This document shows positions 41,679-58,584 of a DNA stretch of 64,000 nucleotides, one piece after another. Within the stretch, counting starts at the first letter, position 1; each line of letters starts with the position of its first letter. The notes below the pieces were generated by a model. That model had not been told where the DNA came from, ran no database searches, and was given only the letters and a program-made list of their open reading frames with translations. A program made the translations under genes and the position numbers. This DNA comes from an uncultured Nitrososphaeraceae archaeon (lineage in GTDB: Archaea; Thermoproteota; Nitrososphaeria; Nitrososphaerales; Nitrososphaeraceae), in assembly GCA_963765895.1 (NCBI GenBank), contig CAVXZB010000019.1, positions 96,001 to 160,000 of the forward strand. The letters run 5' to 3'.

Positions 41679-42976
41679 CTATTGCAATTGTTTTGATTTA
41701 GCTGCTCGAATCTCGATAATGTCCAGTAAGGATTTTGCAAACATTGGCTTATCTTGTATCGGTGTATGGATGACATTTTTCTCAACATCAACTATATAAG
41801 TCTCAATCTTGTCGGAACCAATTTTAGAGCAGTCTCTACCTATATCATTTGCAACCATCATGTCGCATCTAGATTTAATCAGTCTTTCATATGCCTTTTC
41901 AATCAAAACTGAACAAGGTAAGCTATATTCAGCTTTGAAACCAACCAAAAACATCTTATTCGATAAGTCTCTAACTTCATCAATAATCTTTTTGGTGGGA
42001 GACAATCTTAAATCAAGGTAGGGAGAATCACTTTTCAGTTTAATATTTGATTTGTCCGCTAGAGTATAATCACTTACCGCTGCGCTAAAGATACCTACGT
42101 CGTGTACTCTGAGCTAGACAATACCTGTCTTACAGTATTGAGCATATCTTCTGATGTACTTACATTAATTATTCTTGAGTCATTCAACTCCTCAAAATTT
42201 GAGCAGCCATTTCCAAAAACTAGTGTCACGTCGGCTCCCCTAGCCTTTGCTTCTCGAGCGATAGAGATGCCAGTCTTACCACTACTTAGGTTGCTAATCA
42301 CTCTGACAGGATCAATAAATTCAATAGTACCTCCAGCAGTGACAAGGACTTTTTTATTTTCGAACCAACTCTTTTGTGAGATTGGTTGAAGTTTTTTGAT
42401 GACAAGGGCAACAACGCTTTCGAAGGCGGTAACCTTCGCTTTGCCTTCGTAAATATCAGGTTCTAGAATATCGATTCCTACTTGTTTGAGCTTATCTATG
42501 TTGGCGAGAATAAGCTTATTGTAAAACATCGATTGATGCATTGCGGGACAAATAATTATCGGGATATTCGCTCCAACAGCAACCGATAGGATTGAAGTAA
42601 CGGAAGTATCGTCGATCCCATTTGCGATCTTGCTAATCGTATTGGCAGTACACGGATAGACGATAATAAGATCAGAAGTATTGTAGTCAGCCAACGAAAT
42701 GTGCTCTAGATTTCCGGTTAACTTCGTAACCACGTTGTTACCGGTGGCCCATTTCATCAGTTCCGGATTAATTAACTTTGATGAGCTGGTATCAGACATT
42801 ACAGGATAGACCTCAGCTCCATATCTCATAAGAAGCCGCGCAAGATCGACCGCCTTGTATGCCGCTACGCTACCAGTTATACAGAGTACTATCTTCTTAT
42901 TCAGAAGTACTGTACCCAGACTAGCGATAATATCTTTGGACGGATGTTTATTTTGATTTATTCCGGTCCCATTCAT
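41679..42976 (-). CDS. coaBC: bifunctional phosphopantothenoylcysteine decarboxylase/synthetase (+2 frameshift at ~42100)
   Basis: ITGSVAAYK, PCTANTI.K, PAMH, VTAGGT.E.IDPVR...N.SSGK.G; AAVSDY, VGFKAE, VAND. Confidence 0.93.
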
Positions 42977-43833
42977 TCATCCACACCGTCGCCCTTTCCT
43001 AGCATGTTCTTCAATCTAGAATATTCATCATTGGACATATGAAAAATATTTTCTTTTGAGGGAAAGACTCCTGATCTTACGTCGTTGATATAATTGGAAA
43101 GTGCCACGGAAATCACCTCTGATAGGTTCAGATATTGCTTCACAAACCTAGGCTTTAACTTTCCATAAAGACCCAAAATGTCATGCAAAACGAGTACTTG
43201 TCCATCACAATTGTTACCAGAGCCTATTCCGATAATGGGTACCGCTGTAGATTTGGAAATTATTTCAGTCACTTCATCTGTGACCATTTCCAGAACAATA
43301 CTAAATACACCGGCCTGTTCCAAGGACTTGGCATCAGAAATGATTTTGCGAGTCGCAGCCAGAGTATTCCCTTGAGTTTGATATCCATCCCATAATACTG
43401 ATGTTTGCGGTCTTAAACCAACGTGTCCCATAACCGGTATCCCTGAATCGACCAGGGCCTTAATCGTACCAGAAATTTCAGTCCCTCCTTCAAGTTTAAC
43501 CGCATCACTACCTGCTTTGATAAGTTTTATGGCATTGTCAATTGCACTATTTACGGAAGTTTGGTACGAGCCAAATGGCATATCTGCCGTAATTAGCGAG
43601 TGTTTTGTTGCTCTACCGACAGCTCCGACAAATAGTAACATCTCCTCCATTTGTACTGGTATTGTAGATGGATAACCCAGCACAACCATTCCTGCACTAT
43701 CACCAACTAGAATAATGTCAATTCCGGCATTATCGCAGAGGAATGCCATCGGATAATCGTAAGCAGTTAGGACAGTTAATTTTTCAGTACTACTCTTCTT
43801 TAGTAAAATGTCGTGAACTCTAAGCTTCTTCAT
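42973..43833 (-). CDS. panB: 3-methyl-2-oxobutanoate hydroxymethyltransferase
   Basis: LTAYD, LVGDS, DMPF, KLEGG, GHVGL.PQ, IGIG.G..CDGQVLV. Confidence 0.96.
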   Translation of the reverse strand: MKKLRVHDILLKKSSTEKLTVLTAYDYPMAFLCDNAGIDIILVGDSAGMVVLGYPSTIPVQMEEMLLFVGAVGRATKHSLITADMPFGSYQTSVNSAIDNAIKLIKAGSDAVKLEGGTEISGTIKALVDSGIPVMGHVGLRPQTSVLWDGYQTQGNTLAATRKIISDAKSLEQAGVFSIVLEMVTDEVTEIISKSTAVPIIGIGSGNNCDGQVLVLHDILGLYGKLKPRFVKQYLNLSEVISVALSNYINDVRSGVFPSKENIFHMSNDEYSRLKNMLGKGDGVDE

Positions 43834-43840
43834 AGTGCAA

Positions 43841-44617
43841 TTATTCTGAATTTGATTGTTTTTCGAGCCCATCAAGTATAACCTTTAATGAGTTAGCAAG
43901 GTTTCTTCTATTATCGAATTCGTCTATAATGTTCTGCAAATGGTCTATATCTTTTTCTCGCTTTAGGGCAGTTATAGTATCTATCATTGTCGGCATAACT
44001 CTAATTACATTATCCACAATAGTGATATCTGCTGTCTTAGCTGTTCTAGACAGAGGATTTATGTCCAGAGCAATAACTTTTTTGCCCATATCCAAAAGCG
44101 CTTGGGTACAATCTCCATCCTCCATAGTTAGCATGATTACATCCGCCTTGTAAATACCGTTAGAATGCACAAATCTTCTGCTGCTTGTTAGTCCTGGAAC
44201 AAGAGCCGATTTATTTGAAAAGGAACCAAGACAATCCTTTGCACCTTTACTTTCAAGTTCTTGATTTATCAAGCGTTCTCTTTCCGAAGAGCGATGGAAA
44301 AGATTGATTTCTATACGTGCTGGTATTAAATTGCTTAGCATGACGATTTCTGTAGAACACAATGCGGCAAAATTTCCATTAACTGATATGACCGGAAACT
44401 TGGCAGTCAGAAGAGAGCAACATGCAGCATCTATCGCGCTGAAAGAAAACTTACTAGTATGTTCGCCCATCAAATAGTCGAAAGCTTCTCCTCTTCCATG
44501 AGCGATTAGGCCTTCTGAGACAACGAATCCCCTCTGAAAGCCATCCACTAATTGAGATCTAGTCTTGAGTGATATAAACCTGGGATGGTTTTGGGGGATG
44601 TCCGATTTCAATTTCAA
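43841..44617 (-). CDS. 4-phosphopantoate--beta-alanine ligase (PPS)
   Basis: HPR..SL, GLIAHGRGEAFDYL.GE, SVNGN, EDGD, D.NPLSRT. Confidence 0.93.
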   Translation of the reverse strand: MKLKSDIPQNHPRFISLKTRSQLVDGFQRGFVVSEGLIAHGRGEAFDYLMGEHTSKFSFSAIDAACCSLLTAKFPVISVNGNFAALCSTEIVMLSNLIPARIEINLFHRSSERERLINQELESKGAKDCLGSFSNKSALVPGLTSSRRFVHSNGIYKADVIMLTMEDGDCTQALLDMGKKVIALDINPLSRTAKTADITIVDNVIRVMPTMIDTITALKREKDIDHLQNIIDEFDNRRNLANSLKVILDGLEKQSNSE

Positions 44618-44618
44618 T

Positions 44619-45557
44619 TTAAACTTTCAGAACCATTGCTCCTGCGGTATTAACTTTGCATTCAATTAACGTACCACTAAGATCTCTTAAGCATCGCTTC
44701 GCTTCCCTTGCATCCTCACTTGGCACTAAGGTAAATATAGTCCTCCCGAATAAAGCCATCCCACAACCAAAGCCTGCTGATCTCAACCGCGTCATACCTA
44801 ATCTACATCTATTGTCAATAAACTGAAGGGAATTGGAAAAATCATAGGAAATACGCAAAAAGTTTTCTACAGTTGGCGTTTCTATGAACCTTTGCATTGC
44901 GGTTCTACCAAGTCTAGCCAACAATGGTCTATTCTCATCTGATGATAGAATCAATTTCGTAGAGATAGGAGCAACGCACAAGATAACAGCTGTGTAATTT
45001 GCTATCGGCATTTTCGTAACCGATCCTATTCCAGGAGCTCCGCACGCAGTCCTAATGTCAAAGCCTCCAGCAAATTCAGACATAACCGTACCTAGTCCTG
45101 TTTTGCAAACGATTTCGGCCTTGTGAGCAATTTGAGCAGCTGATTCTTTAGTCAAACCCAATTTTAATGCGTCATTCAGAGCATAAGAAAGACTCAGCGC
45201 ACCTGCTCCGCTCGCGCCCAGGCCAAATCCAATGGGAATTTCACTGTTGTGAGTTACGCTAATGTGCAGAGGTTTATCGACTAGCTTCAGAAAGTAGCGT
45301 ATGATCCATTTTGATACTTCATGTCTACCTGATGTGCGATTAGAAACAACAATATCGTAAGAAGCAGAATCCCCTTCAAAGATCCTTACCGTAGTGGTGA
45401 TTCCACTATCAATGCTGAATCCGACACCTGTTGATCCTTTATGAAGATCGTCATCTGGATTTTTCATGGCCAATTGGGGTTCAAAAAACCCAGTCACATG
45501 ACCAGGACTATAGGCCTTGGAGATTGAAATAGGTCTCGCAAGCTCAGATAGAGCCAT
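44619..45557 (-). CDS. pantoate kinase (GHMP family, PoK)
   Basis: PGHVTGFF, GS.G.G, PIGFGLGASGA, AH.AE....TGLGTV, GAPG.G; clustered with PPS, panB, coaBC. Confidence 0.92.
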   Translation of the reverse strand: MALSELARPISISKAYSPGHVTGFFEPQLAMKNPDDDLHKGSTGVGFSIDSGITTTVRIFEGDSASYDIVVSNRTSGRHEVSKWIIRYFLKLVDKPLHISVTHNSEIPIGFGLGASGAGALSLSYALNDALKLGLTKESAAQIAHKAEIVCKTGLGTVMSEFAGGFDIRTACGAPGIGSVTKMPIANYTAVILCVAPISTKLILSSDENRPLLARLGRTAMQRFIETPTVENFLRISYDFSNSLQFIDNRCRLGMTRLRSAGFGCGMALFGRTIFTLVPSEDAREAKRCLRDLSGTLIECKVNTAGAMVLKV

Positions 45558-45622
45558 AATTATATAATGAAACATGAAAATATAAAAATACTGTTTAATT
45601 AGTATTAATTGATATATATAAA

Positions 45623-46636
45623 ATGAGTAGATACGCGCGAAGGATTCAGAAAGTTGGAAGCAGTATATTAATTTCACTTCCAAATGAGTGGATAAAGTTT
45701 AATAATTTGAAGAAAGGCACGACCCTATTAGTTGAAGTAAATAAAGATAATTCGATCTCAGTGTTTCCATCTGCTGATACGAGTGAAGTGGTCAAATCGG
45801 TTGTTATTCCTTACTCTTACGAGAATATGGATAATTTGATTAATCAGATCTATGGTGCTTATCTGCTTGGCTACGATATTATAAAGATTAAGGCAAGGAC
45901 CCAGATTAGATTCGAACATAGTGAAACTATAAAATTCGCGATGAGAAAGCTGGTCGGCTTAGAGATAGTTGACGAAGATACCTCAAATATAGAGTCTCAA
46001 TTCCTTATTGATACCAATTCACTTGATGCAGCGAAAATTCTAAAACGGATGAATACGATTGTTGCAGGAATGTACAGGGACATACTTGACGTCTTCATGA
46101 GTAAGAGTCCTGGAATAGCTAAACTTATTACAAGTAGAGATGATGAAGTAGATCGACAATATTTTCTGTTAGTGAGGCTGATACGAAGCGCAATGATGGA
46201 TCAAAAATTGGCTAGAAAGCTTAATTTGAGCAACATCGACATACTTGATTATAGGATAGCAGCAAATCATCTTGAAAGTGCCGGAGATTATATGGTAGAA
46301 TTTGCTTCATCCTTGCCGTATTTGTACAAAATGAACCTTCTTGAGCCGCTTAACAGTGTTTGTTCGTTCATGGAAGAGATGCAAATTAGATCTGTTACAG
46401 CTTTTGTAAACAAAAATAGTCTCGAATCAATCCAAGTTGTCAGAATGTACGACGAGTTTAACAGGTTAATGGATGTCGTCAAACAAAGGGTTTCCCGAGA
46501 AGATCAGGGAAGTTCGAAGTCAAACATAGCCTTGTTGAATTCCATTTATTCGTTAAACAATCTCGCGAGACTATGGGTCGATGTTGCCGATTTGGTAAAA
46601 CCCGCTTACTTAGTTGCTCCCTTAGGAAGTGGTTAA
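45623..46636 (+). CDS. AbrB-PhoU phosphate uptake regulator family protein
   Basis: RRIQKVGSS.LISLP.EW AbrB domain; AYL.GYD.I, GLEI, RDDEVDR.YFL, LE..GD. Confidence 0.88.
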   Translation: MSRYARRIQKVGSSILISLPNEWIKFNNLKKGTTLLVEVNKDNSISVFPSADTSEVVKSVVIPYSYENMDNLINQIYGAYLLGYDIIKIKARTQIRFEHSETIKFAMRKLVGLEIVDEDTSNIESQFLIDTNSLDAAKILKRMNTIVAGMYRDILDVFMSKSPGIAKLITSRDDEVDRQYFLLVRLIRSAMMDQKLARKLNLSNIDILDYRIAANHLESAGDYMVEFASSLPYLYKMNLLEPLNSVCSFMEEMQIRSVTAFVNKNSLESIQVVRMYDEFNRLMDVVKQRVSREDQGSSKSNIALLNSIYSLNNLARLWVDVADLVKPAYLVAPLGSG

Positions 46637-47117
46637 TCAAGCCTAAGTTAAAATACGTAGATTAATTCTGGCAATATAGGACTCCAATACACTTCTTTTT
46701 GGATGTTAGACCATTGACAGATTTGAGATAGGTAAGCAAAAGTAAAAGACAATGTCCAACCTTAATTCTGGTCTGACACTAAACAACACTAAAATATCTG
46801 AAAAAAGGCCTCCGAGGCATTCGATCTTAAACCTGTCCATTTGCTTAGCCAAACACAGATACACTAGTTTGAAGCGGCTCAGAGGTGTGAATCATTTTTA
46901 ACATAAATTTGGGCTCAAACTTACTCTACTCCAATTGAGCCTTTGAGCCCCTGTACCTTCATTTGCAATATCCATTTATTGCCATATATTAGATTCCTAG
47001 AGGTAAGAGAGCTCAAAACCATATAAGATATTTTCTACATAAAAAAATGTTTCAGTTTATAGAATCATGTCGCAGCTAGATCCCCGAAATCAGTTCATAC
47101 TTCATTCAATGGATGAT

Positions 47118-48164
47118 TCATTTGTTTGGGGTAGTAGTCGATAGAAATGTATTTACTATCTTACCAATCTCAGCCGGATATTGATTCATTACTGCGTGAC
47201 CAGCATTTTTAATCTGTACAAGCCAGGCTCCTGGAATTTTACTTGCAAGAATTAAAGCATTTCCATGCGGCATGTAGTTATTATCATCTGTTCCAGTTAT
47301 GACCAACGTGGGTTTTGCCAATTTAGCTTCCTTATCACAAGCACCACTCCAGTTTGTTTTCTCCCAACTACCTAGGTTATTCTGCTTATTCGCTATTTCA
47401 GGGGACAAACCAGGCTTCAATTGTTGTAATGATGTAGTGTTTGCTGGAATGACAGCAGATTCAGGATGCAGTTTAATCCATCCTGATCCTAACGAGGCAA
47501 CATTAAGCGCTTTCAATTCCTGAGTAGCGGGAATATTATGTAGAGATTTGTTTACAATATCAGCTTGCAATTTAAGAAATTCAGGTGGTTTAGGTATACC
47601 ATCTTTTCCGCCACATGTTGTAGCAACAAGTATTAGTCTGTTAACCTTTTCTGGATAGCTAATTGTAAATGCCTGAGCTATATGTCCTCCCAAAGAATAT
47701 CCCATAACATCTGCTTTTGGTATTTTCAGAGCATCAAGCAAACCAGCTGTATCGTTTGCTAGTTGCGGATAGGTATATGGTTTGGAACCAACTGTTGAAT
47801 TTGCAATTCCACGTTGATCAAACACAATCACTGTGTGATTTGAAGAAATACCCGTTAGAAAGGACGGATCCCAGGCATTCATATTATCAGAAGCGCCATT
47901 GAAAAGTATTAGAGGGTCGCCTTTGCCAAACATTTTGTACGCAACATCAATATCCCCTACATGAACTTTTTTTAATGGGATATTTTGTGTATTTACCGAA
48001 TTCTTAGAATTGGAATTCGTTTGGTCTGGACCTGATTGGCCGTAAACTACTTTAGTAATGTCAAAATAACGATAGTTACTGCTTGATAGGCTTGTAATAA
48101 CAAGAGTAGATATTACTGCAATAAGGACTAGATTATCTTTTCTAATAGGTCTGTGAGTCGGCAC
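47118..48164 (-). CDS. secreted alpha/beta hydrolase
   Basis: N-terminal hydrophobic leader; FD.RG, GYSLGG nucleophile elbow, G.DD, AGH. Confidence 0.85.
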   Translation of the reverse strand: MPTHRPIRKDNLVLIAVISTLVITSLSSSNYRYFDITKVVYGQSGPDQTNSNSKNSVNTQNIPLKKVHVGDIDVAYKMFGKGDPLILFNGASDNMNAWDPSFLTGISSNHTVIVFDQRGIANSTVGSKPYTYPQLANDTAGLLDALKIPKADVMGYSLGGHIAQAFTISYPEKVNRLILVATTCGGKDGIPKPPEFLKLQADIVNKSLHNIPATQELKALNVASLGSGWIKLHPESAVIPANTTSLQQLKPGLSPEIANKQNNLGSWEKTNWSGACDKEAKLAKPTLVITGTDDNNYMPHGNALILASKIPGAWLVQIKNAGHAVMNQYPAEIGKIVNTFLSTTTPNK

Positions 48165-48871
48165 GAACCCTATTTACGCTGAGACGTATTTAAAGTAAAT
48201 CTGACTTACAAAAAGAGTTGTCCACTCGTAAATTATCATAAATTGAGGAGATGTGGGTTATTAAAGTACAACTCTTGATAAATATAAGACATTACGATAC
48301 TTCCTGTTGTAATTCGGATTGACTAGAGTCACGGTCTTGAATGACTGGATCTTCGTACTATAGTTAATGATATTGTTGGCTGACTTTCTTGAGGATACTA
48401 AATCTTTTGAACCCATTTTAAAGTGGCGGAAGGTGTATGAATCAAATTTGACATATTCTCTTAATTGGGATCTAACTACCAAATAGTACCATATGCGTAT
48501 CCTTCTCCAGCACCACTGCGTTGTAATACAGATTATTAGCCGCGCGCCTCATGATATAAGGCATAAATAAATTTTATCACTATCCTGGAACCTTAGTCTG
48601 TACCTGGGACGAAGTGTTTTCGATAAAGTTTAAAACCCGGCACCCTACGTATTAGGTTATAACGCTATTTCCAAGATAATTATGCCGGATGTGTTAAAAA
48701 GTCCGATGCGTTAAACGTATTGGTATTAAATGGAGCTGAATACTGCCGACGTGTCTCCGGAGCCTTGAAGCATACATAAATTGTGATAAAGGGTTAACCT
48801 CTTGCTCTAAAGCTATTTCAGATTTAAATTATGTGATATCAAAGGGCCCAAATAAATGGACAAGTTTGAAG

Positions 48872-48964
48872 CGGGCCCGGAGGGATTTGAACCCTCGACC
48901 TGACGCTTAGGAGGCGTCCACGCTATCCATTTTTCGCCCAAGTTTTGGTCTGCGCTACAAGCCC
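48872..48964 (-). tRNA. tRNA-Arg(CCT) with ~18-nt D-loop intron (48932-48949)
   Basis: GGGCTTG/CGGGCCC acceptor, GACGC CT CCT AA GCGTC anticodon arm, GAGGG TTCAAAT CCCTC T-arm; D-loop oversized by ~18 nt containing a CCAA/TTGG hairpin. Confidence 0.9.
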
Positions 48965-49235
48965 ACTAGATTTTGCGTCCAAGCGCCAATTTAAATATTT
49001 AATCTAGAATCGATGTGACCTAGGACGAAGATAGGATATAGACAGAGGAGATTATATTGTCTATTGTTCTCATCGGTAGTATTAGCAATCTGATGACCCC
49101 GTTTATCCCCCCTGAGAAATTGGATTATAGCAAATTTTCCTAGAATATAGAGAATCCTGCGTATTCCTCATACACATTTACGTATCTAGTCAGGTGTAGC
49201 AATAATATATATATACAATGTTATGGGAATCTTTC

Positions 49236-50403
49236 ATGGCTAAAAAAATTAGGGTTGCAATAGCCGGAATAGGAAATTGTGCCTCAGCCCTAGGTACAGG
49301 GTATTAATTATTATCATACAAATAGAAGCGATACTCGTCTAAAATCTGATGATACGGTCAAGTATAACAGTAACCGTGATGACGCTGAATCCAATATAGA
49401 TAAAAAAAATATTGACAATAACGGCACAAATGGATTAGGACTGACTGCTTATAATTTAGGGGGCTATGACCCAGATGATGTTGAATTCGTAGCTGCATTT
49501 GACGTTATTGAATCGAAAGTCGGTAAGGATTTATCCCAAGCAATATTTGCCGAGCCAAATAATACTGTTTTCACTTCTGATGTTGATAAGATGGATGTAA
49601 AGGTACAAAAAGCTGAAGTATTGGATGGCATAGGTGACCATTACCGTGGGAAAGTGCAGATATCAAACCAAGCATCTGCTGATGTAGCGCAAACGTTGAA
49701 AGATACACATGCAGAAATATTGTTAAATTATCTGCCAGTAGGAAGTAGGGACGCAACTAAATTCTATGCTGAAAAGTGTCTTGAGACTGGGGTGTGTTTC
49801 ATTAATGCTATTCCTGTGTTTGTTGCATCTTCGCCAAAGTGGCAGCAGGCGTTTGATAATAAAGGTATTCCATGTGCAGGAGACGACGTAATGAGTCAAA
49901 TTGGAGCGACTGTTGTCCACAAGACACTAGCAAAATTATTTGTGGATAGGGGAGTCAACATAGATGAGACATATCAATTAAACATTGGTGGTGATATGGA
50001 TTTTTATAACATGCTTGATGAAGATAGATTAGAAGACAAAAGGATTAGCAAAACTAGCGCTGTAGCGGCGATGGCACCTTACGATGTTCCAATGAGAATC
50101 GGACCGTCTGATTATGTGAGTTTCTTAAAAAATGATAAAATATCGTACATTTATCTTCGGGGAAAATATTTCGGTAATATCCCAGTTGAAGTCGATCTTA
50201 AGCTAAGAGTTGTTGATGCTTATAATAGTGCTGGTATTATGATTGACGCAATCAGGGGCGCGAAGGTGGCTCTCGACAGGGGAATTTCAGGGTCATTAGA
50301 AAGTGTCTCCGCGTATTGTTTCAAGCACCCACCCAAGCAAATGTCATATAACCAAGCCAAGAAGAATTTCATAGATTTTATAGAAGGCAGTATAGAAATT
50401 TGA
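49236..50403 (+). CDS. ino1: myo-inositol-1-phosphate synthase (+1 frameshift at ~49293)
   Basis: MAKKIRVAIAGIGNCASAL-VQG read by hand from 49236; VAAFDV, NYLPVGS, GDD..SQ.GAT, QLN.GG..DF.NM, SKT, GPSDY, NSAG, FK.PP. Confidence 0.93.
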
Positions 50404-50711
50404 AGTAATGAGAAATTCATATATGGTATAACAATCCTTACCAGCTTTACCAAAGAAGGTTTCTATTGAGGCTGTCAAGCAACCCGAAGATAGGTTGAGG
50501 GCGAAATAATAGATCCCTTTCTCAAGATGCTATAGTTCTGAAATCTAACAAGTTGAATTATTAGTAGCGCAAGTATTAAACAAACGCCTTATTGATCAAG
50601 TCGCTACAATCATTATACTCCCAAGTTCTAGTACTAGGATCTTACCTTAGGCTTGAGTAATATCTGCTAGAATCGTGCCCATAGTAAATAGACAACTGAC
50701 TTATTTCAACT

Positions 50712-51490
50712 CTATAAAGACTTTAGTGCAAATATTGCCTTAACCTGGACTATCTCAAAGCCCAAATTTCTGTAAATATTAATAGTATTTTCGTTTGCTA
50801 ACGAATGAACGATAAGATATTCGGAATCCATCAGTCTCTCAGAAGCGACAGCGAATCTAATCATTCTAGTTGCAATACCCTTTCGCCTGAATGGTTTTAA
50901 AGTACCTAAGCAATATAGACCAGTTATATTATGAAATTTATATAATAACATGCATCCTACAGGATTATTTGGTTTTTCTGGAATATGCGCTATAATTAGT
51001 GCAAGATTACTTTTGTTGCGTTTAATAATTTTGTCTACTTCGTCTTTCCAGGTTGGAACAGAAAACGTATCGCAAAAAACCCTGACCCATAGTTCTGTTT
51101 CATGTTGCACTTGGAAGTTGATACGAAGAGATGGCCTTCCATGATCGCTGGTAATATCAGGATTGTTAACTATCTTTAGTACATGTACATACTATCAATT
51201 GATCGGAATCCTCTTTCCAAAAGCAACGAAATTAAAGGATAGTTATCTGAGGTATATGGAATATGAACATAAAGATCATGTTTATTTTTTGAACATATCT
51301 CTAAAGCCTCACCAAGTGCATCTTCGATTTCGCAAAATTGGAGGTTGTTTAACCTATTAAAAAAATAGTCTCCTCTTAGTTTGTCATTAAAAAATAGATT
51401 GGCACAGTCGTCAATTCTTTGAAAAGTTGTCCACAATGAACAAAACTTGTTCTCGTTGTCTTCTATACAATTGTCAGTAATAAAGGCCAA
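50712..51490 (-). CDS. GNAT-family N-acetyltransferase, ~259 aa (net +2/-1 frameshift at ~51183)
   Basis: LGT..PFRRKGIAT acetyl-CoA motif A and Y..LGF; joins in frame to ORF 51176-51490 after indel correction. Confidence 0.82.
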
Positions 51491-52619
51491 ATATATCTGT
51501 CATCTTAGAAAGGATAGTTCTGTCGATACCATTAGTTATTCCCTCTAATAAGATATTGAGTGCCCCTTGAGTGTCAAAGTCATTATCTAAGCATGTTTGG
51601 AATTTCTCAAAAATTTTGTTACTGTAACTAATACAACCAGAGTCATTTTCTGAAATGATGGACTCTGCAATAAGCTTGTTAATGGAAACATATTTTTTAA
51701 GATGGGTTCTGGAAAAGGCTAGATCTTCACGATAGTGCTTAGACAAGAGGTAGAGCTTAATAACGTTAGGTAAGAATTCTCTTGCCAGATCTCTTATCTT
51801 TAGCGTGTTTGATAGTGAATTAGACATCTTATTCCCTCTTATAGTAACCGTGCCTACATGACTCCACCACTTTACAGGTCTAGCGAGATTAGTAAGTGCC
51901 CTTAATTGTCCAAGAATAGTTTCGTGATGAGGATAAATCAGTTCTATGCCGCCCCCGTGAATATCATAACGACCTTCAAAAATTGAAATTGCTATCGATG
52001 CATCTTGGATATGCCACCACGGTATACCATTTCCGAAAGCAGGGTCGTAAAATTGCTGACATGAAAGATTAATTGAGTTCCACAGAAGGATGTCCCCTGG
52101 GTTACGTTTGTTTGCCGCTATATCAATCCTGAGTTCTTTGATTTTGTCATACGACATGCCAGACATTTCTCCGTATCGGAGAACTTTTCGAACATCTATA
52201 TAGATATTGCCGGATGCTGAGTACGCTAGCTTCTCGCTAGATAACTTCTTGATGAGGACAATAGCGACATTAACATAATCTGATACCCTGGCTAGAAGGA
52301 AAGATCCGCCAATCTGCAACAGAGACATGTCGTGCAGCAATTCAATCATGAATTTATCCGAGACAGCCTGGGTTGAATTGCCAATCCCTATCGCCTTTGC
52401 AGAGATTTTTGGATCTATGTCTGTGATGGTAACAACAGTCATAGTGTGAAAGCCCTTGTAAATAAAATATCTGGTCATTAGGTCATAAAAATATAACACT
52501 CGGGCATGTCCCAGATGACACAATTCATATAAAGTTGGGCCACAAACGAGGATTTTAATCTGTTCTGGATAGGGTCCCAACCTGATCCTTTTCATCCTCA
52601 ATGTATCAAACAATTTCAT
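51474..52619 (-). CDS. cysteinyl-tRNA synthetase paralog lacking the anticodon-binding domain (MshC-like architecture)
   Basis: CGPT.Y...HLGH, TDID.KI, WHIQD, DIHGGG.EL.YPHHE, KMSNS, HYR, D.DF.T; ends at ~381 aa. Confidence 0.85.
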   Translation of the reverse strand: MKLFDTLRMKRIRLGPYPEQIKILVCGPTLYELCHLGHARVLYFYDLMTRYFIYKGFHTMTVVTITDIDPKISAKAIGIGNSTQAVSDKFMIELLHDMSLLQIGGSFLLARVSDYVNVAIVLIKKLSSEKLAYSASGNIYIDVRKVLRYGEMSGMSYDKIKELRIDIAANKRNPGDILLWNSINLSCQQFYDPAFGNGIPWWHIQDASIAISIFEGRYDIHGGGIELIYPHHETILGQLRALTNLARPVKWWSHVGTVTIRGNKMSNSLSNTLKIRDLAREFLPNVIKLYLLSKHYREDLAFSRTHLKKYVSINKLIAESIISENDSGCISYSNKIFEKFQTCLDNDFDTQGALNILLEGITNGIDRTILSKMTDIFGLYY

Positions 52620-52830
52620 AATTAGATTCTGGACTGTACCACATAATGATAATAATAACTGCATAGAACAATCAATAGTAAATGACCAAGAAAGGTTTTA
52701 TTTATCTGCAATATTTGTATTTCTATCTTCAATTGAAAATCCATTTCAGAGATCGGTTGCTTGGAAAGCTACGTCAAGGTACGCTAGCCATGGGCATAAA
52801 ATCTATATTGATTATTCATTTTTACCCACA

Positions 52831-53100
52831 GTGGATGGTGGCCGCCGTATGAGGCTAGAGAAAAAAATAAACCCCAAAGATATGATCTTCCATTTGAATA
52901 CATTGGATCTCGATGATGGAATAAGGATAGATGGCGTTAAGAAGAAAATCTTTGTAAATAAGACCGATGTGCATGAATTCATACTGCAAATTAAAGAAGA
53001 CAATGGAAGCGAGCAAATATCCTATCATAGAACTGCCTCTGGCGTGATGCGATTGGTTAATGCCACCCTTAAAGGAAAGTTTTCAGTTTCTACTTACTGA
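52831..53100 (+). CDS. small conserved hypothetical protein
   Basis: 83-89 aa protein-like ORF (likely start 52849). Confidence 0.6.
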   Translation: MDGGRRMRLEKKINPKDMIFHLNTLDLDDGIRIDGVKKKIFVNKTDVHEFILQIKEDNGSEQISYHRTASGVMRLVNATLKGKFSVSTY

Positions 53101-53880
53101 TGGTTTTTGGCAAGAATAGGAATCTCATCGACATGATCTGGTGTACTGGGTTGCCTAAACATTAAGATCGAAATTCAGGATTAACATTTTTGGATATCTT
53201 ATAGATTAATGAAGGAACGATGGGTCTATAGCAAGTTTGCCGATGACATCGAGAGGAACCTAATATCGTATGAAACTATTAATGAATTTTAGTGCTAATG
53301 TAATCTAAAACCAGCCCATCCAATCGTAGTTCATTCCGGCACTACACTACTCTTGGTCTTTATTGTTATTTTGAGATAAGTCGGGACTGGCAAAATAGGT
53401 TAGAGATAGCTAAGTCTAAAGTTGAAATATCGATTATAATACTCATGAGGGGCTATCTCATTATAAAATTTGGAGACGCATGATTCGAAGTGTCCTACAT
53501 TGATAAAATTTGCCCTGGTGCATAAAACCATGGAACGTTAATTCTTATTAACACACGCTCCTTCCACAAATCATGAACATATATTTCTCATAGGTCATAC
53601 ATATTCTCGTCTGCAGGATGTATAAGGTGGCAAAAAAATGTCCTTTAAGAATAAAAATACGGGGCAGCCGTGCCAATAAGTGTAAAATCGCACCTGAAGC
53701 GTCATGACTTGGTTAGATTGATTGTCTGGTGATCGTATCCGAATAGAGATCATTTAAATTACGCTGGCATACATCCAATCGTCGACGATTAGCATTCGCA
53801 ATGCTCAATAAACAGAATTAGCCTCATGAATAAGCAAGTTAGAAATACTCGTAAAGCACCTAAATACTGAATGTTACCGA

Positions 53881-54186
53881 TTATCTAGCCCTTGTAATAG
53901 AAACTTCAATTGTAGAAACATTTCTTGTTCGGCCGTCATCAGACTGTATGATTTCGGTTCCCACCTTCACCGGACCTACCTTGTATCCAAGCGTATCCAT
54001 ACGCTTAACAATTATTTGAGCGACGTCAACTGCCCTAGTTATGCTCTTACCTCTTGCCTTTATAACTACCATTGGTTCATTTGCTAACTGTACTAATGTA
54101 GCAGTCACGTATGTCATAAGTGGTTTCTTTCCTATGAAAATCTCATTGCTTGCTTTGCCTGAAATGCGCGCATTTGTAGAGGACAT
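53881..54186 (-). CDS. albA: Alba chromatin/RNA-binding protein
   Basis: IFIGKKP.M.YV, KARG..I..AVDVA, NVSTIE. Confidence 0.96.
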   Translation of the reverse strand: MSSTNARISGKASNEIFIGKKPLMTYVTATLVQLANEPMVVIKARGKSITRAVDVAQIIVKRMDTLGYKVGPVKVGTEIIQSDDGRTRNVSTIEVSITRAR

Positions 54187-55886
54187 CGCGTTAAGTTATG
54201 CCTGTCAGTGAGATATATAATGTTTGTTAATGCCACAAATCTATAATCCTTCGAATTGCAATCCAGGTGAGGACCGTTAAGTGATAGGGGACTTAAATGG
54301 ATCTATCGTATTTAATTAACTAATTTTGTTTACCTAGTGTCATACTAGGACATAGCGATCGTCGGGTTCTTTATTGCTATTAGTTAGTAATCCTAGGATT
54401 TTTCAATTTAGGTAATTTTCAGAAGCTGATTTTGAAAACGCAAATTTTTCATTGGATCCTGTTCATTATCTAACCTAAGTCATATTTCAAACGCATAACT
54501 GTCAAATTCATGCATGCGGGCGTGTTGCCTATCAGTTTATATATAAATTTATGGAGGGCTGCGTTTTAAACTCATCATTTGATGTAAATTCGATAAAAGC
54601 TAAATAACATTCAATTATACCTGGATGTTAGTTCTTCAGATGACCCCCCTATGCATTTCGTCAAAAAATTGGAGTTGTACGACGATACTTCAACATCTCT
54701 TTTAATTTCATTTATAAAACAACTCAAAAATTATATTTGTCCAGTTATCGCACCATATTCCGTAATCGTTATTCTATTTTATTGACGTTTCTCTAACAGA
54801 TATCTCTACTTATCGAACGCTGGCCTGAATATATTGCATACAAATGCAGTAGATGTAATCAAGGTTAGTCATGTAATAAAGTTGAAATTGAAATGACATC
54901 ACCTTAACCAAAGTAGAGCTTCACAATTTGGAACACTTGGTATCGAATGGAAGCAGGAGATGGCGATCTAGTGTTTGCTGCGATCTCAAACCCTCCTGCC
55001 TACGGTGATCTTCTCCAAGTTAGGTCTGTTCGGTAGGTACCGACTCTATGATAGTGGTGATCTAGTAGTCAGTATCGTTATTACAAATCAATAGCTATTT
55101 TTCATTCTGTTTGAATCATAACTTTTGCGGCTAAATCAACCTGACGTGAACTAGCGAGTGAAATAAACTTCCTTTGGCTGGTTTGTGTGGTGACATAATA
55201 ATAGTGACTTATTCGAGATTATGGCATACCTTCTTATGATTTGATTGATTCCTAAAGTTAAGTTTTTTAGTTTGTTGGATAACTGCCATCTCATTTCGAA
55301 TTTGCTAGAATAAGACTGTACGCATCTTAGGCTAGACAGATTCAGTCAGACTTGATCATCTATGCCGGATAGCGCTAATTCAACATAGTAATAAATAGTC
55401 CAGCAGTTTTACAGTCATCACGATGGAAGGCTTGTCATTCTGCATTTGATGTTTTCGAGTATCTAGTAAAAAATACCCTGCATATCCTTCATCGCTCTAT
55501 TGCTTCTGTTTATACAATCGACAGAGCAGTCGATAAATACATTCCGATCCAGAACTCCATTTCCTTAAATTTGGACTGTTCATTAACCGATCCATATTAT
55601 AAATTGCTTAACTAATCACTGTTCCCCAATCCGAGGAGTGTTCGACATACAGGGTAGTGCTAGTAAGGTATGCACATCAAGTTAATTGGTTAAGACACCC
55701 TGGTTAGCCATTCCTCTAAATGTGATTAATTCATATGAAAGCTTTATAACAGACGGTCACCGCTTCCCAAAATATAATAAATACCTCTGAAAATTAAACG
55801 CCAGTAAGCTCGATAGACCACTCATCGGTAAAGGTTTATACGATATGGCTGTTCCGATCGACGGATCAGTAATGATAGCATAACCA

Positions 55887-56126
55887 TTAACGTCCTATAT
55901 CAATTTCTGAATGCTTCTTTAATATGTCTTCGATCTCTAATGGATTTTTATAGATTTCTTCTATTACCACAGGATCCTGAACCTCGTAGCAGTGAAGCAG
56001 CTCCTCATGATCTTTAAAAAAGAGGAATACTCTTCCTTCGAATAGACAATGATATAACTCGTCAGGCTTCATTTTTTCGGTTTGTAATTTTATGCCATCT
56101 GGTTGTATTGTAACTGGAGAATCCAA
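55887..56126 (-). CDS. small acidic conserved hypothetical protein
   Basis: 79 aa; YHC.F...VFLFFKD..ELL.CYEV; divergent from the UbiA operon. Confidence 0.65.
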   Translation of the reverse strand: MDSPVTIQPDGIKLQTEKMKPDELYHCLFEGRVFLFFKDHEELLHCYEVQDPVVIEEIYKNPLEIEDILKKHSEIDIGR

Positions 56127-56244
56127 AGTGTTTACTTTTCGTGGTATTGATAAAAAAATCTAACTATGGTCTACACAACGCGGTCTGTCTAAAAAAGACA
56201 AAAAAAATGCAAGATAAATGTCGGAAGAATTATAATCGTTTTTA

Positions 56245-57177
56245 GTGACATGGCGTGCTAATCCTGTGGCCCTAAAAGACTATCTGCTTATGGTTAGGTT
56301 GCCGAATTTGTTTACGATCCCGTCTAATATTATTGTTGGGTACATCACACTTCTCAGCCCGCCTAATGTTGGACTCTCCTCGTCATTGCCTTTAATTATT
56401 ATTTCTTCTTGTTTGATTTATGCTGCGGGAATCATCTTCAATGATTATTTTGATATAGAAACTGATATGCGTGAAGGTCGTTTAAGACCGTTATCATCAG
56501 GATCAGTTAGGAAGAGGGCTGCGGTTTTGTTGGCTTTTATTTTCCTAGCCTTAGCACTGGTTATTTCTGCATTTGTAGGTGTTTTGAGCTTTGTGGTTTC
56601 GTCCACAATCATAATCATCGCATTGCTTTACGACTACAAGTTAAAGCGAACTAAGATTGCAGCCGTTGCCATGGGCTCGGCTCGCGCTGCCAATATAATT
56701 TATGGGGCATCTCCAATCCTACTGAGCGGTCTATTTGAATCTGAGAATATACAGAAGCTTATGCTAGAAAGCGCCTGTGTGTTCATGTACGTAGCAGCCA
56801 TAATAATGGTAAGCGAGAGAGAAGCCAGTACAATAAAAATAAATCGAAAATGGCTCCTTCGACCTTTCCTGCTAATATCCCTTGTCGTGCTTGTTATGTT
56901 CGTATCGGCAGTTTTAGGTGTGTTTAGAACGGACTTGTTAGTCAATTTGGCATTTTTAATTTCTATCGTCTGTTTTTTTACTTACAGATGGATATTCAGG
57001 TTCAAGTCCGAAATCGGAAGTGAAGAAATTCAGAATTTAGTCAAGATTCTCGTTCTATGCATGGTGATACTTGATTCAGCCTTTGCTAGCGGAATATTTG
57101 GAATATTGTTAGGAGTCGCAGTTGCATCCTTCATAATACCGGGACTCGTTCTGTCAAGATTGCTCTATGTTACCTAA
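56245..57177 (+). CDS. UbiA-family prenyltransferase, EboC-like
   Basis: VRLPNLFT, LIY.AG..FND.FD...D..E...RPL.SG, LYD..LK, MG..R..N, ILD..FA, C-terminal L.VT as in EboC. Confidence 0.85.
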   Translation: MTWRANPVALKDYLLMVRLPNLFTIPSNIIVGYITLLSPPNVGLSSSLPLIIISSCLIYAAGIIFNDYFDIETDMREGRLRPLSSGSVRKRAAVLLAFIFLALALVISAFVGVLSFVVSSTIIIIALLYDYKLKRTKIAAVAMGSARAANIIYGASPILLSGLFESENIQKLMLESACVFMYVAAIIMVSEREASTIKINRKWLLRPFLLISLVVLVMFVSAVLGVFRTDLLVNLAFLISIVCFFTYRWIFRFKSEIGSEEIQNLVKILVLCMVILDSAFASGIFGILLGVAVASFIIPGLVLSRLLYVT

Positions 57178-58584
57178 TGGGAATCATTTTTAAGGCATTT
57201 GTTCTGCTCATTAGGATAATAGCGGGTACCAGTTTGAAACACACAATTGTTATTAACATGGTCGGACTCGAGCACGGACGCATAGAGGCCGGGCTTCCTA
57301 ATCTTTCGAGGATTGCTGGCGCAGGAGAATCCACACAAATCGAGCCTGTTTTTCCTGCTGTAACCTGTACCGTCCAAGCCTCACTTCTGTCAGGTAGACT
57401 ACCCAATGAACACGGAATAGTTGCCAACGGTTTCTATGACAGAGTTAATCATAACGTATGTTTTTGGGAGCAAGCTAGTGGCCTGGTAATGACCGATAGG
57501 GTTTGGGACGTAGTTTCAAAGCAACAAAGGAAAGAGGAGTTGACCTTTAAGAGTGCCTTACTTTTCTGGCAGAACACAATGTATTCCTCAGCAGATATCG
57601 TTGTCACTCCCAGACCGCTTCATATGGCCCAGTCGACGATACCTTGGTGCTATTCCAAACCTGCCGGCTTCTACGATGAGAAGCTAGCACCAGAATTGGG
57701 TGAGTTTAACCTAGCTAATTATTGGGGCCCGTTCGCATCTAGAAAATCGAGTGAGTGGATTGCCAATGCTGCGAAATATATTTTGGAATTCGCAAGACCA
57801 AATCTGATGTTGCTTTATTTGCCCCATCTTGACTATTCTGCACAAAGATTCGGAAAAAGCAGTCCACAAGTACAGGATGATTTGAAATATGCAGACGAAT
57901 TGATAGGTGAAGTAGTTGAGAAAACAATGAAATTAGGCCTTTTAGATCAGACTCAATTTATTATCATTTCGGAATACGGCTTCAGTGACGTGAGTCTCTT
58001 CTGTAAGTATCAATCTAAAGCTTCGAGACGCTGGGCTCTTAGTAACTAGAACAATAAAGGGAAAGGAATACTTGGACTACGAATATAGCCAAGCTTTTGC
58101 AATGGTTGACCATCAAATAGCCCATATATATGCCAAAAATGATGCCATTGAAGCAACCAAAAAAGTTCTTGAGAATGTGGCTGGTATTTCAGATGTTTTA
58201 TCTTCAAATCAGGAGAAGAAAAAATTGAAAATAGATCACGAAAGATCCGGCGAGCTGATTGCCATTTCTAACAAGGATAGCTGGTTTAACTATTACTGGT
58301 GGTATGACGATACTGCAGCCCCAAGTTTTGCAAGCACTGTAGACATTCATAGAAAACCTGGTTATGACCCAGTTGAACTTTTTTTGGACCCTACAACGAA
58401 ATCTGTGCCACTGGATACTTCTCTAGTGAAGTCATCGCATGGTAGGCCACCAAATGTTAACTCTTATGAAGGACTTGCTGCATATGTATCGAATCGCAAA
58501 GGGTTTGTGAGCCAGCACATTAAGAATAATTTTATGCCAAATTCAAGCGACATAGGAAAATATCTCATAAGCTTGGTAACTTGA
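57177..58584 (+). CDS. alkaline phosphatase/NPP-superfamily protein, EboF-like (+1 frameshift at ~57997; start may be TTG 57234)
   Basis: VIN.VGL, PAVTCTVQ, EHGIV.NG, YWGP, YLPHLDY..QRFG, SEYG, AFA.VDHQIAH.Y, VDIHRKPGYDPVELF.DP, SHG. Confidence 0.88.

What the first reader, a model, noticed from the sequence alone, without database searches (positions are those of the whole stretch)
50712..52619. MshC-like CysRS paralog with rewired active site, overlapping a GNAT gene: candidate tRNA-independent amino-acid ligase plus acetylase module
Seen: the ~381-aa protein keeps the CysRS catalytic core (CGPT, HLGH, HGGG..L..PHHE). It stops just after the DALR-like helix (…MTDIFGLYY) with no anticodon-binding domain. 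The canonical GRPGWHIEC reads GIPWWHIQD, so the Zn-ligand Cys is Asp, and KMSKS reads KMSNS. Its 3' end overlaps the GNAT start by 17 nt. Established: mycothiol ligase MshC is such a truncated CysRS paralog, MshD is a GNAT that acetylates its product, and Ino1 supplies the inositol; ino1 lies convergently ~300 nt away. Inference: an archaeal small-molecule aminoacylation plus N-acetylation pathway, mycothiol-like or, given the Cys-to-Asp change, using another amino acid. I know of no such pathway described in AOA. Caveats: no MshA or MshB in the window, and loss of the second KMSKS lysine could mean reduced or no adenylation activity.
Basis: partly seen in the sequence, partly recalled or inferred. 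Interest (0 to 1): 0.78.

Follow-up and report, generated by a model that had tools for sequence, protein, structure and literature searches.

The report
Truncated CysRS paralog gene module
A shortened second copy of the cysteine-tRNA ligase, always found together with a tiny unknown protein and usually an acetyltransferase, is conserved in ammonia-oxidizing archaea and their relatives and probably attaches cysteine to something other than tRNA.

Summary
Window 51474-52619(-) encodes a 381-aa CysRS catalytic core with HLGH, WHIQD and KMSNS that ends at ...IFGLYY, without the C-terminal anticodon domain. A full-length cysS lies elsewhere in the genome. The protein belongs to a conserved family under purifying selection in class Nitrososphaeria, not only in AOA. 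It scores closer to CysRS than to MshC.

The interpretation needs revision in four ways.
- Cys-to-Asp at the zinc ligand also occurs in the sole, full-length CysRS of other archaea, so it does not signal a new substrate.
- MshA, MshB, PIG-L and MshD models find nothing over cut-off. ino1 is near-universal in the class and adjacent only in AOA, so a mycothiol or inositol link is unsupported.
- The GNAT and ino1 genes are frameshifted in this assembly. Contigs of three other soil runs lack the ino1 insertion and two lack the GNAT one, and amoA is broken too, so assembly error is likely.
- The tightest partner is an overlooked 83-aa protein (52849-53100, +) with an invariant C-terminal Tyr. It co-occurs with the paralog. 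Thioredoxins sit beside the paralog or its GNAT in 9 of 14 non-AOA loci.

Best reading (0.4): a tRNA-independent cysteine ligase plus N-acetylase with an unknown acceptor.

The parts
51474..52619 (-). CysRS-derived paralog, 381 aa (alternative ATG at 52664 gives 396 aa). It has the catalytic Rossmann core, CP insertion, SC fold and helical bundle, but no C-terminal anticodon domain. Motifs: C26-GPT, HLGH, PWWHIQD, PHHETI, KMSNS.
   Evidence: dN/dS 0.08-0.20
50712..51490 (-). Tandem-GNAT acetyltransferase gene. Its TTG start overlaps the paralog's end by 17 nt. In this assembly it is split into ORFs 51176..51490 and 50712..51110 by 2 extra bases near 51181-51184.
52849..53100 (+). Small conserved protein ('orf89', 83 aa from the ATG at 52849), divergently transcribed from the paralog. 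It has an LDxD(E/D)GIRI motif and an invariant C-terminal Tyr, and no Pfam or NCBIfam family.
   Evidence: dN/dS 0.12-0.19
49236..50403 (+). ino1 (myo-inositol-1-phosphate synthase), convergent neighbour. Here it is split by 1 extra G at 49293/49294. It belongs to the AOA synteny block but is not shown to belong to the module.

Best explanation
The locus is one copy of a vertically inherited module of class Nitrososphaeria. The module has three genes: a small alpha/beta protein (orf89), a CysRS-derived enzyme without the C-terminal anticodon domain, and in most lineages a tandem-GNAT acetyltransferase.

The paralog most likely still binds zinc and ATP, activates L-cysteine as Cys-AMP, and passes the cysteinyl group to a nucleophile that is not tRNA-Cys, most simply a small-molecule amine. 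The GNAT then acetylates the free alpha-amine of the product with acetyl-CoA, in the manner of MshC and MshD. The product would be a thiol compound with a redox or protective role. orf89 would be an accessory subunit.

The acceptor is not known, and it is not made by a recognisable MshA/MshB route.

What is shown: homology, motifs, a separate cysS, co-occurrence, synteny and purifying selection. What is inferred: the amino acid, tRNA independence, the order of the two reactions and the thiol role.
For: Catalytic signatures are kept family-wide.
- C26, H35, G37, H38, T66, W202, H203, H231, E233, K264-M-S and S268 are invariant in 16 paralogs.
- Of 96 paralogs, 96 have Q-D at the WHxEC place, and 80 have KMSKS, 13 KMSNS, 1 KMSRS and 2 other forms.
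- The residue at the place of the fourth zinc ligand is His in 57 of the 96, so a zinc site is plausible.
- Asp at the Cys209 place occurs in bona fide sole CysRS enzymes.

The gene is a paralog, not the housekeeping enzyme.
- A canonical cysS of 476.7 bits exists in the same genome.
- The C-terminal domain is missing in all short forms, which are 366-418 aa against 461-472 aa for canonical ones.
- dN/dS is 0.08-0.20.

The GNAT is linked.
- It lies directly downstream, from -59 to +7 nt, in 61 of 75 AOA loci (59 complete, 2 cut). 13 loci lack it there and 1 could not be judged.
- It is also downstream in 9 of 14 non-AOA loci.
- It was found only in genomes that also have orf89, except for one stop-riddled remnant in G138.
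- It keeps the R-x-x-G-x-A motif.
- Its model has pLDDT 92.3. The model matches tandem GNATs, including MshD 2c27 (E 1.2e-9, TMq 0.63), better than aa-tRNA transferases such as MprF and L-PGS (TMq 0.47-0.48).

The context is thiol-related in non-AOA lineages.
- A thioredoxin (PF00085, E 1e-30) lies next to the paralog in 5 of 5 f7 loci.
- A CPHC thioredoxin-like gene follows the GNAT in 4 loci.
- Rhodanese and a GcvH-TusA fusion lie upstream in 3 loci.

An RNA-library contig of 1227 nt, 96% identical, covers 51406-52630.
Against: - No biochemical datum exists, and no acceptor-making genes were identified.
- The window's clade has KMSNS and Ile at the fourth zinc-ligand place, so zinc binding and adenylation may be weakened there.
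- The f7 family has the paralog and orf89 but no GNAT (0 of 10 genomes). Acetylation is therefore not obligatory.
- 13 of 75 AOA loci lack an adjacent GNAT.
- The thioredoxin and rhodanese context comes from a few related lineages and is not seen in the window.
- MshD is only rank 14 among the fold matches, and no NCBIfam model names the GNAT.
- CysRS* shows that a CysRS without an anticodon domain can still charge a tRNA (review PMC9437257, passages read).
- The RNA contig may stem from DNA in the library.
Confidence: 0.4

Rival explanations
1. Protein aminoacylation. The paralog transfers cysteine, or a related amino acid, onto the small protein orf89, as the truncated LysRS paralog EpmA/PoxA modifies EF-P. 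Where a GNAT is present it caps the added residue.
For: - orf89 is the most faithful partner. It lies divergently upstream in 14 of 14 non-AOA loci and in 13 AOA loci (27 of 96 loci scanned within 1.1 kb).
- It was found in 33 of 151 class genomes. These include all 28 with two CysRS-type matches and G140.
- It persists where the GNAT is absent (f7: orf89 in 9 of 10 genomes, GNAT in 0 of 10).
- The C-terminal Tyr, D22 and G24 are invariant in 22 of 22 sequences.
- Complex prediction gave weak support: score 0.54, best of 3 controls 0.00. That mark was reached by 58 of 80 solved complexes and 2 of 110 mismatched pairs. At 0.60 or under it was reached by only 7 of those 80 and by both mismatches that passed. 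The runs agree in at least 80% of contacts, and the partner's pLDDT is at least 80.
Against: - The complex score is in the weak band, and no interface was given.
- Binding would fit an accessory subunit equally well.
- No conserved Lys, Ser or Cys acceptor stands out in the orf89 alignment.
- In G122 orf89 lies on a different contig from the paralog.
Confidence: 0.15
2. The paralog still aminoacylates an RNA. The target would be a non-canonical tRNA, as for CysRS*, or a modified nucleoside, as for GluQRS. The GNAT and orf89 would serve RNA binding or act on the charged RNA.
For: - The core, the SC fold and the helical bundle that contact tRNA in CysRS are retained.
- Less diverged members still pass the cysS cut-off of 340 bits: L081 at 425.5 and L090 at 374.5.
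- CysRS* is a precedent (PMC9437257, passages read).
Against: - No tRNA-Cys-like or tRNA-Sec-like gene lies near the locus. ARAGORN found none in 44000-58000.
- Rfam found only one partial tRNA hit at 48880-48938(-). I read its anticodon loop as CCU, which would be Arg.
- orf89 shows no profile similarity to CysRS, including its anticodon domain (hhalign probability 0.2%).
- The GNAT model resembles acetyl-CoA tandem GNATs more than aa-tRNA transferases.
Confidence: 0.2
3. A genuine mycothiol pathway (MshC + MshD + Ino1).
For: - The truncated architecture is like that of MshC.
- A tandem GNAT with MshD among its fold matches lies next door.
- ino1 lies within about 2 kb in 46 of 75 AOA loci.
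Against: - MshC model: 162 bits against a cut-off of 485.
- MshA: best 38 bits against a cut-off of 462.5.
- MshB and PIG-L: no hit.
- MshD: best 32.9 bits against 163.1, and at another locus.
- ino1 is near-universal in the class (149 of 151) and is absent from the 14 non-AOA module loci.
- In Nitrosopumilaceae a deoxyhypusine synthase gene sits between the GNAT and ino1, and SMC follows, so this is a housekeeping synteny block.
- A review found no MSH genes or MSH in archaea apart from a single MshD hit (PMC7278568, passages read).
Confidence: 0.03
4. A catalytically dead or regulatory pseudo-enzyme, for example a cysteine or ATP sensor, at least in the KMSNS clade to which the window belongs.
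For: - KMSNS is combined with loss of the Glu/His fourth ligand in the window's clade.
- The cysS score falls stepwise across the family: 425, 374, 288 and 257 bits.
Against: - Purifying selection acts on the KMSNS clade itself (dN/dS 0.08-0.20).
- The HIGH motif and the other pocket residues are invariant.
- From memory, not from a call: active class I enzymes that lack the second Lys are known.
Confidence: 0.1

Closest known systems
MshC (L-cysteine:GlcN-Ins ligase of mycothiol synthesis)
   Same: Both are CysRS-derived, lack the C-terminal anticodon domain and coexist with a canonical CysRS. Both are followed functionally by a tandem-GNAT N-acetyltransferase (MshD). This is the likely analogy for the mechanism.
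   Different: It is not an ortholog. TIGR03447 gives 162 bits against a cut-off of 485, which is below the cysS score of 256.9. PDB MshC chains score 116 bits against 221 for CysRS 8qhp. No MshA or MshB was found. It has Asp for the second zinc Cys. It is archaeal, and it has an extra small partner protein.
CysRS* of Desulfobacterales (charges the SelC* tRNA)
   Same: It is a CysRS paralog without an anticodon-binding domain, found beside a normal CysRS (PMC9437257, passages read).
   Different: CysRS* is coupled to SelC*/SelB* genes. Here no such tRNA gene was found near the locus, and the partners are a GNAT and a small protein. SelB was not searched for.
EpmA/PoxA/GenX and GluQRS (truncated aaRS paralogs that modify EF-P or tRNA)
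   Same: Both are aaRS catalytic cores without an anticodon domain that transfer an activated amino acid to a non-canonical acceptor. For EpmA, as I recall it, the acceptor is a dedicated partner protein.
   Different: They come from different aaRS families. No sequence or fold link was found between orf89 and EF-P. The best fold match of orf89 is YkuJ 2ffg (Z 8.3, rmsd 2.8, 70 aligned residues), within the range that the tool calls common.
MshD and other tandem-GNAT acetyltransferases
   Same: The model has a two-GNAT-domain fold (pLDDT 92.3), and the C-terminal domain carries the acetyl-CoA motif.
   Different: The best structural matches are 3frm (unknown function) and VipF, and MshD is rank 14. 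No NCBIfam family matches it. The non-AOA forms carry an extra C-terminal domain of about 160-200 aa with no known family.

Membership tests
Canonical CysRS (TIGR00435 cysS) | Score at or above the curated cut-off (340 bits) | tested here: not met
   256.9 bits. The genome's other copy scores 476.7.
Canonical CysRS (TIGR00435 cysS) | C-terminal anticodon-binding domain | tested here: not met
   The protein ends at ...IFGLYY, about 65 residues before the end of canonical sequences. All 96 paralogs are 366-418 aa against 461-472 aa.
Canonical CysRS (TIGR00435 cysS) | HIGH and KMSKS signatures | tested here: inconclusive
   HLGH is present. KMSNS is found here, while 80 of 96 family members have KMSKS.
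Canonical CysRS (TIGR00435 cysS) | Four zinc ligands (E. coli C28, C209, H234, E238). The ligand identities are recalled; the positions were mapped through the 1li5 alignment. | tested here: not met
   C26 and H231 are kept, the C209 place is D206, and the E238 place is I235. In 17 canonical sequences C26, H230 and E234 are invariant, and the C209 place is C or D.
MshC (TIGR03447) | Score at or above the curated cut-off (485.1 bits), and closer to MshC than to CysRS | tested here: not met
   162 bits, below the cysS score. The same order holds for L081, L090 and L095 and for PDB chains.
MshC (TIGR03447) | Presence of the pathway partners MshA, MshB and MshD | tested here: not met
   Nothing over cut-off in the own genome. 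The genome is 88% complete, so absence is not proven.
MshC (TIGR03447) | Ligates Cys to GlcN-Ins without tRNA | not testable with these tools
   This needs an enzyme assay.
CysRS* (SelC*-charging paralog) | Genetic coupling to a dedicated tRNA (SelC*) and to SelB* | tested here: inconclusive
   No tRNA by ARAGORN in 44000-58000. Rfam gave one partial tRNA hit at 48880-48938, which I read as an Arg-type anticodon. SelB was not searched for.
GNAT acetyltransferases (Pfam PF13508/PF00583), tandem type | GNAT domain match over cut-off, the R/Q-x-x-G-x-G/A motif and a two-domain fold | tested here: met
   PF13508 at 36.7 bits and PF00583 at 34.6 bits for the window's C-terminal half. R201-x-x-G204-x-A206 is conserved. 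The model matches tandem GNATs.

The most novel reading that the evidence does not exclude
The module is a new protein-modification system. A CysRS-derived enzyme would cysteinylate the 83-100-aa partner protein, perhaps at or near its invariant C-terminal tyrosine, and a tandem GNAT would N-acetylate the added residue. This would make a protein-borne N-acetyl-cysteine thiol, serviced by the neighbouring thioredoxins. It would be a class I counterpart of EpmA/EF-P and a third functional type of CysRS paralog.
Probability: 0.15. Interest if true: 0.85.

Novelty: new variant of a known kind. Interest (0 to 1): 0.62.

Why it matters
In the review read here (PMC9437257), only two CysRS paralogs have assigned functions: MshC and CysRS*. 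This would be a third, independent recruitment of the CysRS core, and it is archaeal.

It comes with defined partners, and its distribution suits a comparative test. It is present in Nitrososphaeraceae subsets, a Nitrosotalea-type genus and non-AOA Nitrososphaeria. It was not found in the 33 genomes of the largest Nitrosopumilaceae genus sampled.

If the product is a thiol compound or a thiol-bearing protein, it bears on how soil and acid-adapted ammonia oxidizers handle oxidative and metal stress. For that question only ergothioneine and gamma-glutamylcysteine genes have been proposed so far (PMC7554672, passages read).

The work also shows that Asp can stand at the second zinc-cysteine position in sole, full-length archaeal CysRS.

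Tried and rejected
- **orf89 as a detached anticodon domain.** hhalign of A6 against 17 canonical CysRS gave probability 0.2%. Rejected.
- **Fold of orf89.** Foldseek against the PDB gave nothing at E <= 0.001. VIA wide gave YkuJ 2ffg at Z 8.3, within the common range. The Atlas gave only hypothetical clusters at scores of 0.84 or less.
- **Extra C-terminal domain of the long non-AOA GNATs.** No Pfam family. No PDB sequence match better than E 0.042. The Atlas gave only unnamed archaeal clusters. It was not found in the own genome with that one query.
- **Net charge and pI of paralog versus canonical cores as a hint of tRNA binding.** The groups overlap, so this was uninformative.
- **A second Ino1-like gene as a lead.** It occurs in the 9 paralog-bearing genomes of family f2. 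Its neighbours are Thi4, sulfite reductase, rhodanese, a thioredoxin-reductase-like gene and a PALP enzyme, with no glycosyltransferase or deacetylase. No link was established, and those genomes are kin.
- **Literature.** Mycothiol with Thaumarchaeota, Nitrososphaera or Nitrosopumilus gave nothing relevant. One search was badly framed and uninformative. MshC/archaea/paralog, LMW thiol/Thaumarchaeota, and CysRS with Thaumarchaeota or with paralogs gave no description of this family. One search, looking for a source for the zinc ligands, found nothing, so the ligand identities remain recalled. Supplements were not consulted. Tables S2 and S3 of PMC7554672 may list this gene family.
- **Tree.** MshC and bacterial CysRS sequences could not be obtained through the tools, so the tree has no outgroup. 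It does not settle whether all short forms share one origin.
- **Reads.** X4's contigs break at 51182/51185, so that run says nothing about the GNAT indel.
- **The search of protein representatives** was not ready and was not tried again.
Full report
**1. What is at the coordinates**

The minus-strand ORF 51474..52619 gives 381 aa, or 396 aa from an upstream ATG at 52664. It is a clear CysRS catalytic-domain protein. Pfam tRNA-synt_1e scores 232.7 bits. The NCBIfam cysS model scores 256.9 bits, below its 340-bit cut-off, and the MshC model scores 162 bits against a cut-off of 485. The best solved relatives are CysRS chains (8qhp at 221 bits, E. coli 1li5 at 185 bits). The MshC chains 3c8z and 8hfm reach 116 bits.

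Aligned to this genome's own canonical enzyme, the protein stops at the conserved (I/L)(F/L)GL. That is about 65 residues before the canonical C-terminus. It therefore keeps the helical bundle and lacks only the last alpha/beta domain.

A full-length cysS of 476.7 bits, with GRPGWHIEC and KMSKS, lies about 195 kb away on the same contig, outside the window.

**2.

The downstream gene is not one ORF here. It is read in two frames, 51176..51490 and 50712..51110. The close relatives L006-L009 have a single ORF of 257-261 aa. The window carries 2 extra bases (AT) near 51181-51184.

ino1 is likewise split by one extra G at 49293/49294.

I laid contigs of four public runs from different studies on 49100-52700.
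- The one-base insertion is absent in X1, X3 and X4, which are all the DNA contigs covering that place.
- The two-base insertion is absent in X1 and X3. X4's contigs break there.

amoA of the same assembly is also read in three frames. A phosphodiesterase gene in the window is split as well. I therefore take the frameshifts as most likely assembly errors, or at most strain-specific lesions. In the species the genes are intact.

**3. A conserved family, wider than AOA**

The word-index search found 455 proteins at E <= 0.001, and the 120 listed are 333-414 aa long. Their sources name them 'cysteinyl-tRNA synthetase' or 'class I tRNA ligase family protein', from Nitrosopolaris, Nitrososphaeraceae and the like.

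A scan of species-representative genomes gave 557 confirmed relatives, of which 80 loci were kept.

In a sample of 151 genomes of the class, every genome has a CysRS-type match and 28 have two. A further genome, G140, has a single match of the short type. The short form occurs in:
- this genome and 1 of 3 other genomes of its family;
- 9 of 80 genomes of family f2 (genus g18 in 7 of 7, plus g12 and g21), but none of the 33 genomes of g6;
- the families f4, f7 and part of f9.

Titles of matching proteins point to Conexivisphaerales and other non-AOA Nitrososphaeria.

Canonical enzymes of the class are 461-472 aa long, with PGWHIEC and PHHENEIA. The short forms are 366-418 aa, and 96 of 96 have Q-D in place of E-C.

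In a tree of 76 rows, the 17 canonical EC-type rows form one group (SH-aLRT 99) and the 42 AOA paralogs form another (100). The tree started from 121 rows; near-duplicates at 80% identity or more were dropped. It used the quick LG+G4 method and is unrooted. Inside the AOA paralog group, the main subgroups follow the record names (Nitrososphaeraceae-named against Nitrosopumilaceae- and Nitrosotalea-named loci). The non-AOA short forms form two further groups. Whether all short forms share one origin is not resolved.

cysS scores fall stepwise across the family: L081 at 425, an f4 member at 374, an f7 member at 288 and the window at 257 bits. The cysS score is always above the MshC score.

Pairwise dN/dS inside the window's KMSNS clade is 0.08-0.20.

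**4. The zinc-ligand argument**

I mapped positions through the 1li5 alignment. The E. coli ligand places C28, C209, H234 and E238 correspond to C26, D206, H231 and I235 here. The identities of the ligands are recalled, not taken from a call.

Asp at the C209 place is not peculiar to the paralogs. Full-length enzymes with PGWHIED are the only cysS matches over cut-off in a Methanobacterium genome (515.7 bits), a Bathyarchaeia genome (535 bits) and a Thermoplasmata genome (491 bits). Cys-to-Asp alone therefore does not argue for a new amino acid.

The fourth place is Glu in 4 of the 96 paralogs (all among the f4 and f9 forms), His in 57, Ile in 15 and Leu in 12. Most members thus keep a plausible four-ligand site. 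The window's clade has the most eroded site and also KMSNS, as do 13 of the 96.

**5. Partners**

*(a) The GNAT.* It starts between -59 and +7 nt of the paralog's stop in 61 of 75 AOA loci. Thirteen loci, mostly Nitrosopolaris-type, lack it there, and one could not be judged. It also follows the paralog in the 9 f4 and f9 loci.

Across the 151 genomes the GNAT profile hits 25. All but one of these also carry orf89 and belong to families where the paralog occurs. The exception is G138, whose weak match is interrupted by three stop codons and which lacks the paralog and orf89. None of the 10 f7 genomes has the GNAT.

The model, built on L006's intact ortholog, has pLDDT 92.3 and a tandem-GNAT fold. 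Foldseek ranks 3frm, VipF and other tandem GNATs first. MshD 2c27 is rank 14 (E 1.2e-9). aa-tRNA transferases rank lower.

*(b) An overlooked small gene.* It lies at 52849..53100(+) and encodes 83 aa. Homologs lie divergently upstream of the paralog in 14 of 14 non-AOA loci and in 13 AOA loci. In Nitrosotalea-type loci a PAC2 gene is inserted between them.

Its profile hits 33 of 151 genomes. These are all 28 two-match genomes, G140, and four incomplete genomes with one CysRS-type match. In G051 that single match lies right next to the orf89 gene.

D22, G24 and the C-terminal Tyr are invariant in 22 of 22 sequences. dN/dS is 0.12-0.19. The protein has no Pfam or NCBIfam family.

Complex prediction with the paralog gave weak support: score 0.54 with a best control of 0.00. 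That mark was reached by 58 of 80 solved complexes and 2 of 110 mismatched pairs. At 0.60 or under it was reached by only 7 of the 80 and by both passing mismatches. The runs agree in at least 80% of contacts, and the partner's pLDDT is at least 80.

*(c) Thiol context in non-AOA lineages.* A thioredoxin (E 1e-30) lies next to the paralog in 5 of 5 f7 loci. A CPHC thioredoxin-like gene follows the GNAT in 4 loci. Rhodanese, a GcvH-TusA fusion and a radical-SAM gene lie upstream in 3 f4 loci.

**6. Inositol and mycothiol**

ino1 lies within the fetched flank in 46 of 75 AOA loci. In Nitrosopumilaceae, however, a deoxyhypusine synthase gene sits between the GNAT and ino1, and SMC follows. This is a housekeeping synteny block.

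ino1 is absent from the 14 non-AOA module loci. It is present in 149 of 151 class genomes regardless of the paralog.

The MshA, MshB, PIG-L and MshD models find nothing over cut-off in this genome, which is 88% complete. Mycothiol proper is therefore very unlikely.

**7. Mechanism and verdict**

The best-supported reading is a tRNA-independent cysteine-activating ligase coupled to an N-acetyltransferase. It would be mechanistically like MshC and MshD but independently derived from archaeal CysRS. Its acceptor is unknown and its role probably thiol-related. The small protein would be an obligatory partner.

Three rivals remain open: that the small protein is itself the acceptor, that an RNA is charged, or that the window-clade enzyme is inactive.

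An RNA-library contig covers the whole paralog at 96% identity, which is compatible with expression but does not prove it.

The literature searched (passages only, no supplements) does not describe the family.

Noticed in passing
window 49293-49294 and 51181-51184; G000:C24:168102-168652: The assembly carries small insertions that break ino1 (+1 G), the GNAT (+2, AT) and, elsewhere, amoA (read in three frames). Contigs of other soil metagenomes lack the first two. This suggests a consensus-error-prone assembly.
   Followed up: yes
window 57177-58049 and 58072-58584 (+): A type I phosphodiesterase/nucleotide pyrophosphatase (PF01663) is split into two ORFs that cover profile positions 1-225 and 259-342. 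It is probably another break of the same kind.
   Followed up: no
G000:C19:342260-343636 (locus L001 1441-2895): The canonical cysS frame is open for 485 codons, but the first ATG, GTG or TTG is 63 codons into the CysRS match. The true start may be lost to an indel or may use another codon.
   Followed up: no
window 48880-48938 (-): Rfam finds a partial tRNA (32 bits, model positions 9-63). I read its anticodon loop as CCU (Arg). ARAGORN does not call it. It lies in an ORF-poor stretch of about 1 kb between the hydrolase gene and ino1.
   Followed up: partly
window 42095-45683 (-): A run of coenzyme A biosynthesis genes: Dfp-type flavoprotein (PPCDC/PPCS), ketopantoate hydroxymethyltransferase, archaeal phosphopantothenate synthetase and a GHMP kinase. 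It lies about 5 kb from the module. No link was shown.
   Followed up: no
L130 5968-6969 (G140:C3) and L131 6139-7152 (G040:C13): Paralog-bearing Nitrosopumilaceae genomes have a second, divergent Ino1-like gene. It sits next to Thi4, sulfite reductase, rhodanese, a thioredoxin-reductase-like gene and a PALP enzyme.
   Followed up: partly
G138:C1:341759-342334: A Nitrososphaeraceae genome without the paralog and without orf89 gives a weak match to the module's GNAT profile (E 2.6e-13) that is interrupted by three stop codons. It may be a decayed remnant of the module.
   Followed up: no
L090 5515-6066; L091 5614-6102: In the f4 and f9 lineages the GNAT carries, or is followed by, an extra domain of about 160-200 aa with no Pfam family. 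Its nearest Atlas clusters are unnamed archaeal proteins from Bathyarchaeota and Thermoplasmatota.
   Followed up: partly
L081 6001-7254 and 7281-8051 (genome G154): This is an intermediate form. A 418-aa CysRS-like protein keeps WHIED and PHHEAEIA and still passes the cysS cut-off (425 bits). It is followed by the same GNAT, in a genome that also has a canonical cysS.
   Followed up: partly
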